From assembly GCA_965261835.1 (NCBI GenBank), contig OZ253478.1, positions 2,617,733-2,681,732 of the forward strand: a stretch of DNA of 64,000 nt. Reading direction: 5' to 3'. Position numbers and translations under genes: made by a program. Of this stretch, positions 5,401 through 12,241 are shown one piece after another; the first letter of the stretch is position 1, and each line of letters opens with the position of its first letter. The stretch comes from Dehalococcoidia bacterium. GTDB taxonomy: Bacteria; Chloroflexota; Dehalococcoidia; SHYD01. The notes below the pieces were generated by a model. That model searched no databases, had not been told where the DNA came from, and worked only from the letters and a program-made list of their open reading frames with translations.

Positions 5401-5565
5401 GCAGCGGCGGCAGGGGTGGCGGAGCAGCTGGCGGCGTTGCGGTCGGCGCGCGGGCAAAGCGTCAGCGTCACGATCGCGCGTCGGGAGCTGCGGGCGTGGC
5501 TGCGCGGGTCAGCGGCGGGCGCGCGGGTGGAGGCAGGGGTGGGTCGGCTGCTGGGTGGCGGGTAG
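2425..5565 (+). CDS. Type IIG-like fused restriction endonuclease / N6-adenine DNA methyltransferase
   Basis: N-terminal D...ExK plus QL..YL and GILTDG..W nuclease signature; EYYTP; DPACGSGTF (motif I); NPPW (motif IV); C-terminal TRD-like region. Confidence 0.85.
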   Translation: MTLHIDYDDPKFAAAAAEILQRHNNGEPEANITSAVRGFLIATGLASPSEIGEENPPAQGSRSAVDLTALDTFIESKRRIGNGIDPNPEYVQQLDDYLAQSAKQGRERMGILTDGKYWLTRWPNAGPVKLVPPYAFTLESPDGWILLYEWLRDHALAAVENKQPTRLTIAESFGPNSLAYQRDVAQLRAKYDEYAGLNTIKVKYQLWQNLLTAALGEIAGTPAQLDDLFVRHTYLSAVIGMVVQASFGSDIRQLAETDPADLLQGRSFRNQTGLQGVVESDFFAWPTEVGGLPLLKALARRVAKFDWRNPPNDIAAILYETVIPPEERRQLSEYYTPGWLARAIVQELVTDPMDQYVLDPACGSGTFIAEAVTHLLDAANKTSLDAKEVLDWLRFSVTGIDVHPVAVHLARAAWVLAAQPAIQAAVEDGFAANLTVPVYLGDALQLRFRTGDMFAEHNVTVQVEDEHHTELVFPVSLVQRAETFDGLMGDIADAIDHGDDPDVALDDHRITDPGERATLQQTIASLQRLHGEGRDHIWAYYTRNLVRPVALAQSKVDVIVGNPPWLNYNQTASILRSELERQSKDLYGIWTGGRYATHQDVAGLFFARSVDLYLKQGGLIGMVLPHSALQTGQYSKWRSGAWQAKSIGSGKGRQPGRVLSVDFSHKMAWDLEGLEPNSFFPVPAAVVFARNLGVDAQAIGLAGEVERWRGKPGGDADRRKRVAIVDTSTASISPYGHFSRNGATIFPRCLFFINETENTALIQAGQTITVNPRRGGQDKEPWRNLDLTALTGQTIEAQHVFDVYLGETLAPYATLDPLKAVLPLKPRNRELPADSKGVGGIRLGGLSQRMRDRWRVVSNLWEANRAAATKMNLLGQLDYYGKLSSQLEWRAAPGDRPVRVVYNQSGAPTAALLQDDDAIVDYRLFWIACKDAQEAHYLLAIINSDALATAVAPLMSKGQFGARDLEKHLWKLPIPAFDAGNPLHLELAAAGEAAAAGVAEQLAALRSARGQSVSVTIARRELRAWLRGSAAGARVEAGVGRLLGGG

Positions 5566-5567
5566 GG

Positions 5568-5653
5568 GATGCCGCCTCCATATTAAAGCCTGCCTATCGT
5601 ATAGAGCGCCGTGGCCGCCATATGTAAGGCGGGCTTCAACATAGGAAGGATGG
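5568..5653 (+). repeat. Two-site copy of the 40-bp palindromic array; direct repeat of 13942-14027
   Basis: Sites at 5576-5606 and 5616-5646; the last 40 bp (5614-5653) are identical to 13988-14027. Confidence 0.95.
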
Positions 5654-6546
5654 AAGGCAGAATGAAGTCCTTGCGAGAATTGCTGGCCTATTATAAGGGG
5701 TGCCAGATGGGTGCTGACGCTACATCTGAACGACGATTCGGGTCAAGACACGGCACGGTTACGATCTCGGATGAAACGAGGATTATTGATTCGGCCCTTC
5801 TCTATGATGCCGACCGATTGACCAAGGCGTCCTTAGCATCGTACTTGGCGTGCAGCCACCTGAGTTTGGGAGGCCACAGCACATGGGGAGACATCAGCTT
5901 GTACTATGCCCGGTTTCATAGCATCTTGGCAATGGTGCGGCTGGTAGGGATAGCCTCCGACAATAATTGGCTCTTGATTCGCACAAACGAAGAGCGCCGT
6001 GAATACAAGCGCATGAAAAAGTGCACCCAGGAAGCGAAAGAGGTCGGGTGCGGCGGGGGCAGCCACAGAGAGGCCTGGCGCATCTTCTCACGGTATTTTC
6101 AAGACTGGGCACAGGACGAGACGCCGAGAAAAGTGGCATCCATTCTGGGAGAAGACCCCATCTTCGCCAAAGGCACAGCCATGTATGCAGCGGCGATAGT
6201 GGAGCGAAACGAGGCCAACTATCTCCAGTCCAACGCCGGCGTCTTCTTTCCCGAGACCGATTTTTCGGGATCGCAGCATGTGGTTAAGGTAGCAAAGTCG
6301 CGGGGGAACTGGAACTGGTTGCGGACTGACGCTACTCCAGGTGGGTCCGAGGACTCGCCTGAAGAGTGGTTCGCCAAAGAGATGGGAACCTGGTACTTAA
6401 TCAAGTTCGTCATTGCGGCATTGGTCAAGTCGCAGGGTCAACTCCTCTTGGAAGACTATGTCTGGATTATCGACAACCTCGACGCCTACCCGGGACTGAC
6501 CCAGCACATGAAGAACGACCTTCTCGATGTGTGCACCTATGATTGA
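5650..6546 (+). CDS. Hypothetical protein, probable HEPN domain
   Basis: LYYARFH...GSH...ERNEANY matches the HEPN YYAxFH / sH / RxxADY pattern; visibly more AT-rich; start 5650 or 5662. Confidence 0.55.
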   Translation: MEGRMKSLRELLAYYKGCQMGADATSERRFGSRHGTVTISDETRIIDSALLYDADRLTKASLASYLACSHLSLGGHSTWGDISLYYARFHSILAMVRLVGIASDNNWLLIRTNEERREYKRMKKCTQEAKEVGCGGGSHREAWRIFSRYFQDWAQDETPRKVASILGEDPIFAKGTAMYAAAIVERNEANYLQSNAGVFFPETDFSGSQHVVKVAKSRGNWNWLRTDATPGGSEDSPEEWFAKEMGTWYLIKFVIAALVKSQGQLLLEDYVWIIDNLDAYPGLTQHMKNDLLDVCTYD

Positions 6547-9800: not shown

Positions 9801-12008
9801 CTGTGGCTACACGAACAGGAGGTCGTCCGGCTGAATAAGGGTCTGGCCGTGTTCCGCCCCGCCATGACCATCCATCTGAGGCCGGAACAGCGCGGCTTCG
9901 CCCAGGCCGACTTTGCATCCCTTAAGATCCACTACGACGAACAGGTGCTGCAGATTCACGTGATGGCGGAATTCGTACAGCAGGGCCTTAGAGCCATGGC
10001 CGGCGCCCTGCGTTTGGCTGCAGACTATTTCAGCCTTCGCCGAGAAGACTTTCTGCACCGCTGGCTACGGGATCGAGACAGCGAACTCTCGCGTCAAACC
10101 ACGCCGGAATCGTGGCAGACCATCGTCGAAAGCCTGAAGAACCCCATCCAGCGACGAATCGTGGCGGATGACCGGGAGCAGACGAATGTCCTGGTGCTCG
10201 CAGGCCCCGGCTCCGGCAAGACCCGCGTGCTGGTACATCGCATCGCCTATCTGATTCGCGCAAAGCGTGAGAACCCGCGCGGCATCGTGGCTCTAGCCTA
10301 CAACCGGCACGCCGCGGTGGAGATCCGCCGCCGCATATCAGAGCTCATTGGCGACGACGCCCGCAGAGTGATTGTGCTCACCTGCCACGCGCTCGCCATG
10401 CGACTGGTCGGCACCAGTTTCACGGGGCGTGCGAATCGTCTGGAGGAGGGGGATTTCCAGGAAGTACTCCGGCAGGCTTCGGCCCTATTGCACGGGGAAG
10501 GACTGCCGCCCGACGAAGTAGACGAGTATCGGGCACGTCTGCTGGCAGGTTTCCGCTGGATATTGGTGGACGAGTACCAGGACATTGGCCCGGATCAGTA
10601 CGAATTGATTTCCGCCCTGGCAGGCAGAACCCTTGCCGACGAGGACGACAAGCCCAGCCTCTTTGCAGTGGGGGACGACGATCAGAACATCTATGCCTTC
10701 AGTGGCTCGTCGGTGGAGTTTATCCACCGTTTCGAGACGGACTACGGAGCCAAGCCCGCCTTCCTAACCGACAACTATCGTTCCACCGGTCACATCATCG
10801 CGGCCGCCAATGCGGTGATGCACCCGGCCCGGCAACGGATGAAGACCGGGCATCCAATTCACGTCGACCGGGCACGCGAGAAGGAATCGCCTGGCGGTGC
10901 ATGGACTGAACGGGACCCGGTCGCCCGCGGTCGAGTCCAGATACTCCCGGCTGGCGACACCCCTATCTCCCAAGCGCAGGCGGTCGTCGCTGAGTTGAAG
11001 CGGTTGTCCGATCTCACGTCCGACTGGAACTGGTCCGCTTGCGCGGTGGTGGCGCGCGAATGGAGCTACCTGGATCCGGTGCGCAGCCTCTGCGAGCTTG
11101 AGGGGATTCCGGTGCAGCTGGCGAGCGAAGAGCTCTCGAGCGTCTGGCATCTACGGGAGACTCAAGCGCTTTTGAACTGGCTACGCGGGCGCAACTCCAA
11201 GTTGGTTAAGAATGCGGACCTGCACGACTGGGTAGTCAATCAACCCTCAGGCCCTTGGATCGAACTGCTGATGGAAGCCATAACCGAGTACGGCGAGGAG
11301 ACCAGTGGCGCGGAAACATCGGTGGAGCACTTCATCGAATGGCTGGCCGAGTGGGGAAGGGACGTGCGTCGCCGCCAACGCGGGCTGCTGCTGCTGACCG
11401 CCCATCGCGCCAAGGGCTTGGAGTTCGACCACGTGGTTGTGCTGGACGGAGGCTGGGATCGCGTTGGCAGTGGCGAGGATGCGGGGGCCCCGCGCCGGTT
11501 GTACTACGTGGCCATGACCCGCGCACGGCAGACCCTCGCCCTCGCGCGCTTTCCAAGGTCGCACCCACTCCAGAATGCGTTGTCGGACACTTCCTCGGTG
11601 CTGCGCCGCCGGGATCCCGTAAAACTCCCACCGGCAGCGCCGGAGCTCGCCCGCCGCTATCGGCGGCTCAGCCTGCGCGACGTCTTTCTGAGCTTCGCAG
11701 GGTACCAACGCCCTAGCGATCCGGTGCATCGCGCCATTGCCGCGCTCTCGCCCGGCGATCTGCTACAGGCGCGGGTCCAGTCGAATCGCCGGTCGAATCG
11801 CTGGGAGCTTCTGAACCGCGACGGGATGGTCGTAGGACGACTTGCTGGTGATTTCGAGGCTCCTGCCGGCATGCGCTGCACGTTTGCCACGGTCTCGGCC
11901 ATCGCCACCTGGAACCGCGAGAGTTCGGATCCGCAGTACCTAGACCGCCTTAAATGCGATACCTGGGAAGTGGTGGTCCCGGAGCTGGTGTTCGAGCCCG
12001 AGTCGTAA
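6822..12008 (+). CDS. Large fusion of DEDD-like exonuclease, RecQ SF2 helicase and UvrD/Rep SF1 helicase
   Basis: DLEV and [80 protein letters not shown]. True start may be GTG near 6886. Confidence 0.88.
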
Positions 12009-12095
12009 CCCCTCCGGCAAGGGAGCACGCCCACATGCCGGTTCACCCACCCATTCCGGTTGCAGGCTGGCGGCTTGGCTGCGCTGCACCCGCTC

Positions 12096-12241
12096 GCAGC
12101 TCGCCGCACTGCGCGCCGCCCGCGGCCACAGCGTCAGCGTCACGATAGCGCGTCGGGAGCTGCGGGCGTGGCTGCGCGGGTCAGCCGCGGGCGCGCGGGT
12201 GGAGGCAGGGGTGGGGCGGCTGCTGGGTGGCGGGTAGGGGA
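12096..12241 (+). repeat. Copy 3 of the RM gene 3' end (gene fragment with TAG stop)
   Basis: 12130-12241 differs from 5458-5569 at 3 synonymous positions; 12096-12129 encodes QLAALRAARGH with recoded third positions. Confidence 0.95.

What the first reader, a model, noticed from the sequence alone, without database searches (positions are those of the whole stretch)
5448..12241. Three copies of the RM gene 3' end, with a shared junction point
Seen: copies lie at 5448-5569 (in gene), 6570-6688 and 12096-12241. From GCGTCAGCGTCACGAT onward all differences are synonymous, including TAG versus TGA. Copy 2 begins about 12 nt before this point. Copy 3 continues upstream in frame (QLAALRAARGH versus QLAALRSARGQ) but is recoded at almost every third position. 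Inference: the fragments come from different functional alleles, and repeated exchange at nearly the same spot points to site-directed integration rather than random duplication.
Basis: partly seen in the sequence, partly recalled or inferred. Interest (0 to 1): 0.82.

Follow-up and report, generated by a model that had tools for sequence, protein, structure and literature searches.

The report
Repeated RM gene tail brackets cassettes
The last ~110 bases of a restriction-modification gene occur three times in a row, each extra copy closing off a different foreign defence-type gene, which looks like a way of stacking defence genes behind one anchor gene without any integrase of their own.

Summary
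The 3' end of a 1046-aa type IIG restriction-modification (RM) gene (2425-5565) occurs three times, and only there in the 2.76-Mb genome. Two extra copies (6569-6688, 12094-12241) follow an unknown 298/311-aa gene and a 1728-aa RecQ/DpdF+UvrD helicase gene. All 7 differences among the copies are silent (random expectation 1.5e-4 to 5e-4). Copy 3 switches from 3/105 differences to 10/33 just upstream.

"Site-directed integration" is only partly supported. Relatives (mostly records titled Dehalococcoidia) show the same thing repeatedly with different defence cargo. Left ends of the fragments pile up at the start of the tail (12 of 26 within 28 codons) but scatter from codon 446 to 1021. No tyrosine or serine recombinase gene lies in the window. 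The RM 5' end is duplicated in the same way around hicAB.

Best reading (0.55): homologous recombination at the tail inserts foreign cassettes that carry their own tail copy, as in rhs C-terminal displacement.

Rivals are a recombinase acting in trans, in-situ long target duplication, and scars of overwritten RM alleles. This is a new variant of a known kind, of moderate interest.

The parts
1473..1536 (+). orphan copy of the RM gene's 5' end (45 nt upstream plus the first 19 nt of the ORF); left repeat around hicAB
   Evidence: the repeat finder family D6, 97 % identical to 2380-2443; sequence read
1597..2242 (+). hicA (1597-1833) and hicB (1847-2242) toxin-antitoxin pair, lower G+C, lying between the two 64-nt repeats
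   Evidence: Pfam HicA_toxin E 7.6e-13; HicB_lk_antitox and HicB E 1e-13; G+C 0.53 against 0.61-0.69 around it
2380..2443 (+). resident copy of the 64-nt 5' segment, containing the start of the RM gene
   Evidence: (D6)
2425..5565 (+). type IIG-like restriction-modification gene, 1046 aa, intact
   Evidence: Pfam N6_Mtase and Eco57I; PADLOC REase_MTase_IIG E 5.8e-61; aligns over positions 4-1039 of a 1040-position profile built from 49 relatives
5446..5569 (+). tail copy 1: the gene's own last ~39 codons plus stop (TAG)
5568..5653 (+). R80a: one unit of an 80-nt palindrome-rich repeat directly after the RM stop; its end overlaps the likely start (ATG 5650 or 5662) of the next gene
   Evidence: the repeat finder D2, 87 % identical to 13942-14027; found only at this locus in the genome and in 0 of 400 other genomes of the class
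5650..6546 (+). cargo 1: 298-aa protein (311 aa from GTG 5611) of no known family
   Evidence: no hit in Pfam, PADLOC or NCBIfam; nearest Atlas clusters are unnamed hypothetical proteins; G+C 0.53-0.57
6569..6688 (+). tail copy 2 (stop TGA), beginning 23 nt after the stop of cargo 1
6822..12008 (+). cargo 2: 1728-aa fusion of a RecQ/DpdF-like SF2 helicase (about aa 290-680) and a UvrD/GajB-like SF1 helicase (about aa 1107-1575)
   Evidence: Pfam DEAD, Helicase_C, UvrD-helicase, UvrD_C; PADLOC DpdF E 1e-117, GajB E 4e-51; NCBIfam recQ_fam above its cut-off
12094..12241 (+). tail copy 3 (stop TAG): 12094-12126 is a divergent in-frame extension and 12127 onward is the near-identical core
   Evidence: X11 contig spanning 11432-13100
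12330..12503 (+). 57-aa ORF with two Cys pairs, no family
   Evidence: sequence read
12539..13762 (-). Fic-domain protein (SoFic-like), 407 aa
   Evidence: Pfam Fic_N and Fic; PADLOC SoFic E 5e-122
13782..14027 (+). R80b-d: three tandem 80-nt units between fic and the PIG-L gene; with R80a they form direct repeats around the whole cargo array

Best explanation
The locus is a stack of foreign defence-type cassettes accreted behind a type IIG RM gene by homologous recombination at the gene's last ~35 codons. Each incoming unit carried cargo plus a copy of an RM tail from another functional allele of the same population. A single crossover between that tail and the resident tail (Campbell-type, circular or concatemeric donor) inserts the cargo, keeps the RM gene intact, and leaves a tail copy on each side. 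Repeating this gives RM-tail1 | orf311-tail2 | helicase-tail3. No dedicated integrase is involved. The same process at the gene's first 64 nt placed hicAB upstream. Shown: the repeats, their silent-only divergence, the sharp change of divergence at the core's left edge, recurrence with different cargo in relatives, and the absence of local tyrosine or serine recombinase genes. Inferred: the circular intermediate, RecA dependence, the direction of the events, and how the first cargo-plus-tail unit arose.
For: 1. Three same-strand copies end at the stop codon (within 4 nt) and begin within about 14 nt of each other.
2. All 7 differences are silent, and the 4 private to the orphan copy 2 are silent too (P about 0.01). 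So copy 2 diverged while it was still coding, that is, in another functional gene.
3. Copy 1 against copy 3 shows 3/105 differences in the core against 10/33 just upstream (Fisher 3e-5). The core and the extension therefore have different histories, joined at a recombination breakpoint.
4. The three 90-nt cores are 95.6-98.9 % alike. The window's gene core against 60 other alleles has a median of 64 % and a maximum of 80 %. That is what recombination needing near-identity, or conversion among copies, predicts.
5. The pattern recurs. In 4 of 71 related loci a second tail lies 1.3-3.4 kb downstream on the same strand (L044, L058, L070, L073). G031 has an orphan 90.6 % identical to its own gene's last 106 nt. 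In 401 genomes of the class, 24 of 67 tail matches are detached from a gene body, against 6 of 49 for an equal-sized 5' control (Fisher 0.005).
6. Cargo beside tails differs everywhere and is defence-like.
7. No tyrosine or serine recombinase gene lies in the window, and all large ORFs of 1400-14030 are accounted for.
8. The same signature appears with other anchors: the 64-nt RM head around hicAB, and diverged repeats of about 910 nt of a two-gene module around an insert in L073 relative to L080.
9. Jackson et al. 2009 (PMC2935791, passages read) proposed this two-step homologous recombination with circular intermediates for arrays of displaced rhs tips.
Against: 1. No circle, excision product or presence/absence polymorphism was seen. 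The Logan contigs break at the repeats and gave no usable joint.
2. Between genomes the tail is not better conserved than the rest of the gene: nucleotide identity is 0.51-0.55 for codons 1001-1040 against a gene mean of 0.57. So it is not an obviously favoured homology anchor, and exchange would be limited to close kin.
3. The left ends cluster more than plain homologous recombination predicts: 12 of 24 fragments from the last 160 codons start in 28 codons (P 3e-4).
4. The variable sites in the three tails are interleaved (patterns 1|23 and 13|2 alternate), with no block mosaic that would mark a crossover.
5. How a first cargo-plus-tail unit forms is unexplained.
6. Several relatives show RM bodies replaced by other genes, with head and tail left behind (G260, G135, G014 contig 8). 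That fits overwriting at least as well as cassette insertion.
7. No close relative with an empty site was available.
Confidence: 0.55

Rival explanations
1. Sequential overwriting or 3'-end displacement by linear DNA. Each extra tail is what remains of an earlier resident RM allele. An incoming fragment (a new RM allele or its 3' part, plus a downstream gene) recombined homologously on its left and joined illegitimately on its right, just upstream of the old tail, pushing that tail downstream.
For: Relatives show RM bodies replaced with ends left behind. G260 has head 6-228, a C5 methylase, an NgoFVII-like endonuclease, then tail 981-1039. G135 has head 2-52, IrrE and DUF4411 genes, then a tail. 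G014 contig 8 has a partial head about 900 nt before tail 963-1039. L045 has 2-126 joined to 951-1039. Three genomes have two tandem, divergent 150-aa C-terminal modules with no cargo between them. Copy 3's divergent in-frame extension looks like an older allele. The junction zone is an Ala/Gly-rich, low-complexity, indel-prone stretch, which could favour microhomology joins (inference).
Against: If tail 3 belonged to an allele as divergent as its 33-nt extension (30 % different), its core should differ at about 30 positions, not 3. Conversion confined exactly to the core has to be added. Two independent illegitimate joins within 14 nt of each other in one locus are unlikely. No microhomology at the junctions was examined.
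Confidence: 0.17
2. Site-specific integration by a recombinase encoded elsewhere. The tail is an attB, each cassette carries an attP that restores the gene's end, and the copies are attL and attR sites of tandem integrations, as with islands in tRNA genes or in 3' ends of protein genes.
For: The geometry fits: same-strand repeats run from a shared left zone exactly to the stop codon, the gene is kept intact, and the integrations are tandem. The left ends cluster. The genome encodes 3 tyrosine and 2 serine recombinase matches that could act in trans.
Against: No recombinase gene lies in the cassettes or anywhere in the 64-kb window. Junctions differ by 12-14 nt inside the window and range from codon 446 to 1021 across loci. 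The junction DNA is not conserved between genomes; the cores have a median identity of 61 %. The tail shows no inverted-repeat or structured core (z -0.3 to -1.4). Equivalent duplications use quite different sequences, namely the RM head and a two-gene module.
Confidence: 0.12
3. In-situ insertion with long target duplication, as described for RM-linked rearrangements. Each cargo was inserted at the RM 3' end with duplication of about 110-150 nt of resident target, and the copies then drifted.
For: Furuta et al. 2010 (PMC2853133, passages read) describe inserts flanked by direct repeats longer than 30 bp with no mobility genes, for all RM types and in many phyla. The 64-nt repeats around hicAB differ at only 2 positions, both non-coding. 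The three tails are far closer to each other than to any of 60 other alleles.
Against: The orphan copy 2 has 4 private changes, all silent, including stop to stop (P about 0.01 under drift). Copy 3's extension is 30 % different from the gene while its core is 3 % different. Two independent events would both have to end their duplication at the stop codon. The defining test, a single copy at an empty site in a close relative, could not be run.
Confidence: 0.12
4. The extra tails are kept because they do something themselves (terminator, promoter for the next gene, small peptide or RNA), or they are an assembly artefact.
For: Copy 2 lies in a 53-aa ORF with an ATG. Tails sit between genes, where signals are expected.
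Against: No Rfam family was found. No promoter-like or terminator-like site was called in any tail. Folding is no better than shuffles. Orphans in relatives carry stops, frameshifts or truncations (G031, L058, L073). Against an artefact: the copies differ by point changes, have unique flanks, and one is bridged by a contig from another study.
Confidence: 0.04

Closest known systems
rhs C-terminal displacement (Jackson et al. 2009, BMC Genomics 10:584; PMC2935791, abstract and passages read)
   Same: There is a full-length gene followed, on the same strand, by an array of dissociated units. Each unit keeps a fragment of the gene's conserved sequence. Those fragments are near-identical within a locus, while the variable parts are unrelated and laterally acquired. 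The proposed mechanism is homologous recombination with circular intermediates and no dedicated recombinase.
   Different: In rhs the conserved fragment precedes a variable protein tip, so the protein changes. Here the conserved fragment is the very end of the ORF and the variable part is a separate downstream gene, so the RM protein stays the same and only its neighbours change. Three relatives (G174, G257, G392) do show displaced 150-aa C-terminal modules, which is closer to the rhs case.
Insertion with long target duplication at RM loci (Furuta, Abe and Kobayashi 2010, NAR 38:2428; PMC2853133, passages read; Nobusato et al. 2000 is cited there and was not read)
   Same: Inserts of a few kb are flanked by direct repeats of tens to hundreds of bp, without transposase or integrase, in RM contexts. 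The mechanism is unknown.
   Different: There the RM system is the insert and the repeat is a duplicated target. Here the RM gene's own ends are the repeated sequence, the inserts are other defence genes, and the repeats carry the marks of different functional alleles.
Integrative islands that target the 3' end of a gene and restore it (attL/attR; tRNA and protein-gene targets). Recalled general knowledge, also summarised in PMC2853133
   Same: The 3' end is repeated on the same strand on both sides of the insert, the gene is kept intact, and tandem arrays are possible.
   Different: Such elements carry or depend on a site-specific integrase and have one exact crossover core. No recombinase gene is present here, and the junctions vary.
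Integron cassette arrays (recalled general knowledge; no paper read)
   Same: There is a row of mostly single-gene cassettes on one strand behind one anchor, each ending in a repeat of about 60-140 nt.
   Different: There is no IntI gene. The repeat is coding sequence with silent-only variation and no attC-like fold. The cassettes appear to have their own upstream regions.

Membership tests
Type IIG restriction-modification enzyme | Single polypeptide with a gamma-class N6-adenine methyltransferase domain of the Eco57I/MmeI kind | tested here: met
   Pfam N6_Mtase (40.6 bits, cut-off 20.4) and Eco57I (34.3 bits, cut-off 25.3); PADLOC REase_MTase_IIG E 5.8e-61. MmeI_Mtase scores below its cut-off (21.8 against 27).
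Type IIG restriction-modification enzyme | An endonuclease domain in the same chain, and cleavage activity | tested here: inconclusive
   The N-terminal 260 aa and the C-terminal 406 aa match no Pfam family. Activity is not testable with these tools.
Integron | An IntI-type tyrosine recombinase gene next to the array | tested here: not met
   PF00589 matches in the genome lie at 478413, 1825942 and 2343905. None falls within 2617733-2681732.
Integron | attC: an imperfect inverted repeat that folds as a single strand | tested here: not met
   The folding energies of the three tails are not better than shuffles (z -0.28, +0.59, -1.39). Only RNA parameters were used.
Site-specific integrative island at a gene's 3' end | Direct repeats of the target's 3' end at both borders, with the gene restored | tested here: met
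Site-specific integrative island at a gene's 3' end | An integrase gene within or next to the element | tested here: not met
   No PF00589 or PF00239 match in the window. The ORFs of 1400-14030 are all assigned or too few to hide one, except for the unknown orf311 and the unknown N-terminal 290 aa of the helicase. DDE transposase families were not searched.
Site-specific integrative island at a gene's 3' end | One exact crossover core shared by independent insertions | tested here: not met
   Left ends lie at -118 and -104 nt in the window; at about -117, -101 and -110 to -120 nt in L070, L058 and G031; and at profile codons 446-1021 over 26 fragments.
Insertion with long target duplication (Furuta 2010) | An insert under 20 kb flanked by direct repeats over 30 bp, with no mobility genes | tested here: met
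   Repeats of 64 nt and about 105-150 nt; inserts of 0.8, 1.1 and 5.5 kb
Insertion with long target duplication (Furuta 2010) | The repeated sequence occurs once at the empty site of a close relative, so the repeat is a duplicated target | not testable with these tools
   No genome of the same genus is held. The flanking genes are not syntenic in the 5 family members searched.
rhs-type displacement by homologous recombination | Dissociated units downstream of an intact gene, same strand, each with a fragment of the gene's conserved sequence that is near-identical within the locus | tested here: met
rhs-type displacement by homologous recombination | The displaced unit is an alternative C-terminal part of the protein | tested here: not met
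   In the window all three tails encode the same 34 residues, and the variable parts are separate genes. The feature is met only in relatives G174, G257 and G392.
rhs-type displacement by homologous recombination | A circular intermediate and RecA dependence | not testable with these tools
   The contigs laid break at the repeats. No raw reads were available.

The most novel reading that the evidence does not exclude
The last ~35 codons of this RM family act as a dedicated landing pad. A population-wide pool of single-gene defence cassettes, each carrying its own copy of the tail, is swapped in and out behind the RM gene by host recombination alone. This would be an integron-like cassette system with no integrase, in which the anchor gene is always repaired by the incoming cassette, and in which recombination between tails can bring a silent downstream cassette next to the RM gene. 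The piling-up of junctions at the tail's first codons would then be a selected property of the system rather than a by-product.
Probability: 0.15. Interest if true: 0.8.

Novelty: new variant of a known kind. Interest (0 to 1): 0.55.

Why it matters
It is still unclear how defence islands gain and shuffle genes when no phage, transposon or integrase is in sight. This locus and its relatives offer a concrete, testable route. A short piece of an anchor gene travels with each cargo gene and lets ordinary homologous recombination insert it without damaging the anchor. If that holds, orphan gene ends could be used as markers to find newly acquired, unannotated defence genes such as orf311 here and the unnamed cargo in L070 and L058. 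The rhs-type displacement model would then extend from polymorphic toxins to restriction-modification loci in an uncultured lineage. If the cause is instead plain overwriting or long target duplication, the finding is one more example of known RM-linked rearrangements.

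Tried and rejected
1. Empty site and synteny. tblastn of 11 window proteins against the first 11 relatives' loci found nothing. The PIG-L and glyoxalase genes lie far apart in the 5 family genomes searched. No before/after comparison for the window was therefore possible.

2. Public runs. Logan contigs of X7, X11, X1 and X3 were laid on 1000-15000. Contigs stop inside the repeats, and the listed joints have short sides or come from other organisms. Two oddities were seen: X1 joins 5498 to 12486, and X3 joins 12091 back to 5422. 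They were not usable as evidence. X11 shows no cover over 1467-1933 and 5670-6603 at a depth of about 2-3, which proves nothing.

3. Conservation as a trivial cause of the shared boundary. The idea was that the tail is the best-conserved DNA, so only it is detectable or recombinogenic. This is rejected. Tail windows have 0.51-0.55 nucleotide identity against a gene mean of 0.57, and codons 961-980 are higher at 0.69 yet are absent from the short orphans.

4. R80 repeat as the real recombination site. It is not found in about 130 related loci, nor in 400 other class genomes.

5. Structured RNA, attC, terminator or promoter in the tail: nothing found.

6. An ungapped identity measure anchored at the stop codon was meaningless because tail lengths differ. 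It was replaced by a motif-anchored 90-nt comparison.

7. Alignment A3 had an out-of-frame first row and was replaced by A4. The local tail profile contains that one out-of-frame row among 56.

8. The full-length profile scan of the class scored only 2 candidates per genome, so it is not a census of fragments.

9. The search of earlier findings returned nothing for this place.

10. Literature. Searches for 'C-terminal displacement' / orphan / restriction-modification and for defense island / direct repeats / homologous recombination / cassette / hotspot listed no paper describing repeated RM 3' ends bracketing defence cassettes. Only listings and abstracts were seen. Supplements are closed and might hold such cases.

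Full report
OBSERVATION. The window holds a 1046-aa ORF (2425-5565) with N6_Mtase and Eco57I domains and a strong match to a PADLOC type IIG restriction-methyltransferase model. Its last ~120 nt recur at 6569-6688 and 12094-12241 on the same strand. A search of the window's whole genome (one contig, 2,763,565 bases) finds these three places and no others. From codon GTC at 5461 to the stop, all three copies encode VSVTIARRELRAWLRGSAAGARVEAGVGRLLGGG. They differ at 7 nucleotide positions: five third positions plus TAG versus TGA. Copy 2's similarity begins about 12 nt before GCGTCAGCGTCACGAT. Copy 3 runs on upstream in frame with 10 of 33 bases changed, 8 of them at third positions.

ANATOMY. 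The order of features is as follows.
- A glyoxalase-family gene.
- A 64-nt orphan copy of the RM 5' end (1473-1536).
- hicA and hicB.
- The resident 64-nt segment (2380-2443) and the RM gene with tail 1.
- One 80-nt repeat unit, R80a (5568-5653).
- A 298/311-aa gene of no known family.
- Tail 2.
- A 1728-aa RecQ/DpdF-like plus UvrD/GajB-like helicase fusion.
- Tail 3.
- A 57-aa ORF.
- A SoFic-like gene on the other strand.
- Three tandem R80 units (13782-14027).
- A PIG-L family gene.

The stop codons of the two cargo genes lie 23 nt and 86 nt before the tails. The tails are not in frame with the cargo. hicAB and orf311 have lower G+C than their surroundings. The R80 repeat occurs nowhere else in this genome and in none of 400 other genomes of the class.

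ARE THE COPIES DRIFTING DUPLICATES OR PIECES OF WORKING GENES? About 32 % of single-base changes in the 105-nt core would be silent. Seven random changes leave the peptide and stop unchanged with probability 1.5e-4 (5e-4 with a transition bias). The four changes private to the orphan copy 2 do so with probability about 0.01. So copy 2 at least acquired its differences while it was being translated, that is, in another functional gene. Copy 1 against copy 3 changes abruptly from 3/105 differences to 10/33 at the core's left edge (Fisher 3e-5). In a 90-nt motif-anchored comparison the three cores are 95.6-98.9 % identical. The window's gene core is at most 80 % identical (median 64 %) to 60 other alleles. 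Across all 1830 allele pairs the median is 61 % and the 99th percentile 80 %. The 33-nt extension of copy 3, at 70 %, therefore looks like a foreign allele, and its core looks like a local one. A recombination breakpoint lies between them.

RELATIVES. A pattern scan with a C-terminal alignment returned 71 loci, mostly records titled Dehalococcoidia or Chloroflexota MAGs. Genes around the RM homologues are very diverse. The largest non-RM cluster of neighbours has 10 members among 1029 ORFs. A local tail profile was built from 55 tails plus one mistaken out-of-frame row. Six loci with aberrant ends, six without the motif, and three further divergent tails (L106, L107, L110) were left out of it. 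The profile finds a second same-strand tail 1.3-3.4 kb downstream in 4 of 71 loci: L044, L058, L070 and L073. G031 has an orphan 90.6 % identical to the last 106 nt of its own gene.

In 401 genomes of the class, a 38-position tail profile gives 67 matches in 52 genomes. Of these, 43 sit on a gene body (an open frame of at least 850 aa, or adjacent body fragments) and 24 do not. Of those 24, G068 and G269 were not examined, and G398 is cut by a contig end. An equal-sized 5' profile on the same genomes gives 49 matches with 6 detached heads. The excess of tails has Fisher P 0.005, or 0.014 without the three uncertain ones. Kin are not independent, so these P values overstate.

I mapped 26 tail-bearing fragments on a 1040-position profile built from 49 full-length relatives. 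These 49 are the cluster members of 1000-1120 aa among 81 (with tail-profile positions converted for four short ones). Left out were L119 (contig end), G031's orphan (below threshold because of an internal stop), the second G158 orphan, G068 and G269. The L120/L125 pair and the L118/L132 pair were each counted once as orthologous loci.

Left ends fall at 446, 774, 887, 891, 896, 915, 915, 926, 948, 951, 956, 963, 981, 984, 994, 1000, 1001, 1003, 1003, 1004, 1006, 1009, 1010, 1014, 1015 and 1021. Twelve fall in 994-1021 and six in 1000-1006. Against uniform ends over the gene, P is 1e-12. Among the 24 fragments from the last 160 codons, P is 3e-4. Profile alignments end fuzzily, and codons 981-1000 are poorly conserved. 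Where a resident gene allows nucleotide comparison, the ends lie at -118 and -104 nt (window), about -117 (L070), -101 (L058) and about -110 to -120 (G031) from the stop. So there is a hot zone of about 20-75 nt, not one site, plus a tail of longer fragments.

Cargo next to tails differs in every case:
- orf311 and the helicase fusion in the window;
- PDC-S21/DUF4917, a CHAT-domain protein, an NYN protein and unnamed proteins in L073, L044, L058 and L070;
- a C5 methylase, a GIY-YIG protein and Vsr in G147;
- a C5 methylase plus an NgoFVII-like endonuclease between an RM head and tail in G260;
- IrrE and DUF4411 genes between head and tail in G135;
- HNH plus EcoRII-N proteins in G251/G119;
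- an AAA_15 ATPase in G158.

MECHANISM. A dedicated integrase is not supported. No PF00589 or PF00239 match lies in the window. The island's ORFs are all accounted for, apart from orf311 and the helicase's unknown N-terminal 290 aa. The tail has no unusual fold, Rfam match, or promoter or terminator call. Similar repeats arise from other sequences: the RM head around hicAB, and a two-gene module around an insert in L073 compared with L080, where the repeats are about 910 nt and 75-90 % alike and the insert carries a partial tail.

Several features are what a single homologous crossover between a resident tail and a tail carried by incoming circular or concatemeric DNA would give:
- silent-only divergence;
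- within-locus near-identity against between-genome divergence;
- a breakpoint at the core's edge;
- a right end that always falls at the stop codon;
- cargo that differs from locus to locus.

This is the model proposed for rhs arrays (PMC2935791). I put it at 0.55.

Points against are listed in full in the Best explanation section. In brief: no intermediate or polymorphism was seen. The tail is not specially conserved between genomes. The junctions cluster more than the model needs. There is no block mosaic among the variable sites. The origin of the first unit is open.

RIVALS.
- One-ended displacement or overwriting by linear DNA (0.17). It is favoured by relatives where RM bodies are replaced with ends left behind, and by tandem divergent C-terminal modules in G174, G257 and G392. 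It needs extra conversion to explain the near-identical cores.
- A recombinase acting in trans (0.12). It fits the geometry but nothing else that was tested.
- In-situ long target duplication (PMC2853133) (0.12). It is disfavoured by the silent private changes of copy 2 and by copy 3's mosaic. Its decisive test, an empty site in a close relative, could not be run.
- A function of the tail itself, or an assembly artefact (0.04). Decayed orphans in relatives and a bridging contig from another study speak against these.

COMPARISON AND VERDICT. The structure works like rhs C-terminal displacement and resembles RM-linked insertions with long target duplication. It is not an integron and not a classical integrase-borne island, because defining features of both were tested and not met. 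What is new is the anchor, the cargo and the recurrence. The anchor is the extreme 3' end of a type IIG RM gene, so the protein is unchanged. The cargo is unrelated defence-type genes. The pattern recurs across an uncultured lineage. My two literature searches on this (listings and abstracts only) showed no description of it. Supplements were closed. I class it as a new variant of a known kind, with interest 0.55.

Noticed in passing
window 5568-5653 and 13782-14027: An 80-nt repeat unique to this locus. Each unit holds two palindromes, for example CTCTATAGTATAG..CTATAGTATAGAG with a 5-7 nt spacer. One unit directly follows the RM stop and overlaps the start of orf311; three tandem units lie upstream of fic. 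Together they form direct repeats around the whole 8.3-kb cargo array. They could be operator sites or a second recombination anchor.
   Followed up: partly
window 1473-1536 and 2380-2443: A 64-nt direct repeat (97 %) containing the RM gene's upstream region and its first 19 nt flanks a lower-G+C hicAB pair. This is the same kind of anchor duplication at the gene's 5' end.
   Followed up: partly
L122 6048-6955, L123 5996-6894, L124 5670-6589 (G174, G257, G392): The RM homologues are followed by a second, divergent copy of the C-terminal ~150 aa (profile 890-1039) with almost no spacer. The two copies are 50-60 % identical at nucleotide level. In L124 a central tract reaches 86-93 %.
   Followed up: partly
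L115 6002-9058 (G260); L133 3811-6128 (G135); L038 about 8866-10081 (G014 contig 8): RM genes whose interior has been replaced by other defence genes: a C5 methylase with an NgoFVII-like endonuclease in G260, and IrrE with DUF4411 in G135. Only a head and a tail remain.
   Followed up: partly
L073 11378-13706 compared with L080 11374-12314: A two-gene minus-strand module is present twice in L073 (75-90 % alike), around an insert that carries an aspartyl-protease-like ORF and a partial RM tail. L080 has the module once.
   Followed up: partly
window 6822-12008: An unusual single-chain fusion: an unknown 290-aa N-terminus, a RecQ/DpdF-like helicase, a ~420-aa unknown linker, and a UvrD/GajB-like helicase. 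It is a stand-alone candidate defence gene.
   Followed up: no
window 12330-12503: A 57-aa ORF with CxxC...CxxC spacing (zinc-ribbon-like) between tail 3 and the end of fic. It matches no family in three libraries.
   Followed up: no
L070 11678-11794: The orphan tail in L070 matches the tail of another genome's allele (L076, 89.3 % over 121 nt) slightly better than its own gene's (87.7 % over 114 nt). This suggests a foreign-allele origin there too.
   Followed up: partly
window 12091 and 5422 (run X3, table 5c): One contig of a related organism joins the helicase 3' flank to sequence resembling the RM gene's own pre-tail stretch rather than copy 3's divergent version. This hints that the boundary differs between strains. 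It rests on a single contig of depth 9, so it is not relied on.
   Followed up: no
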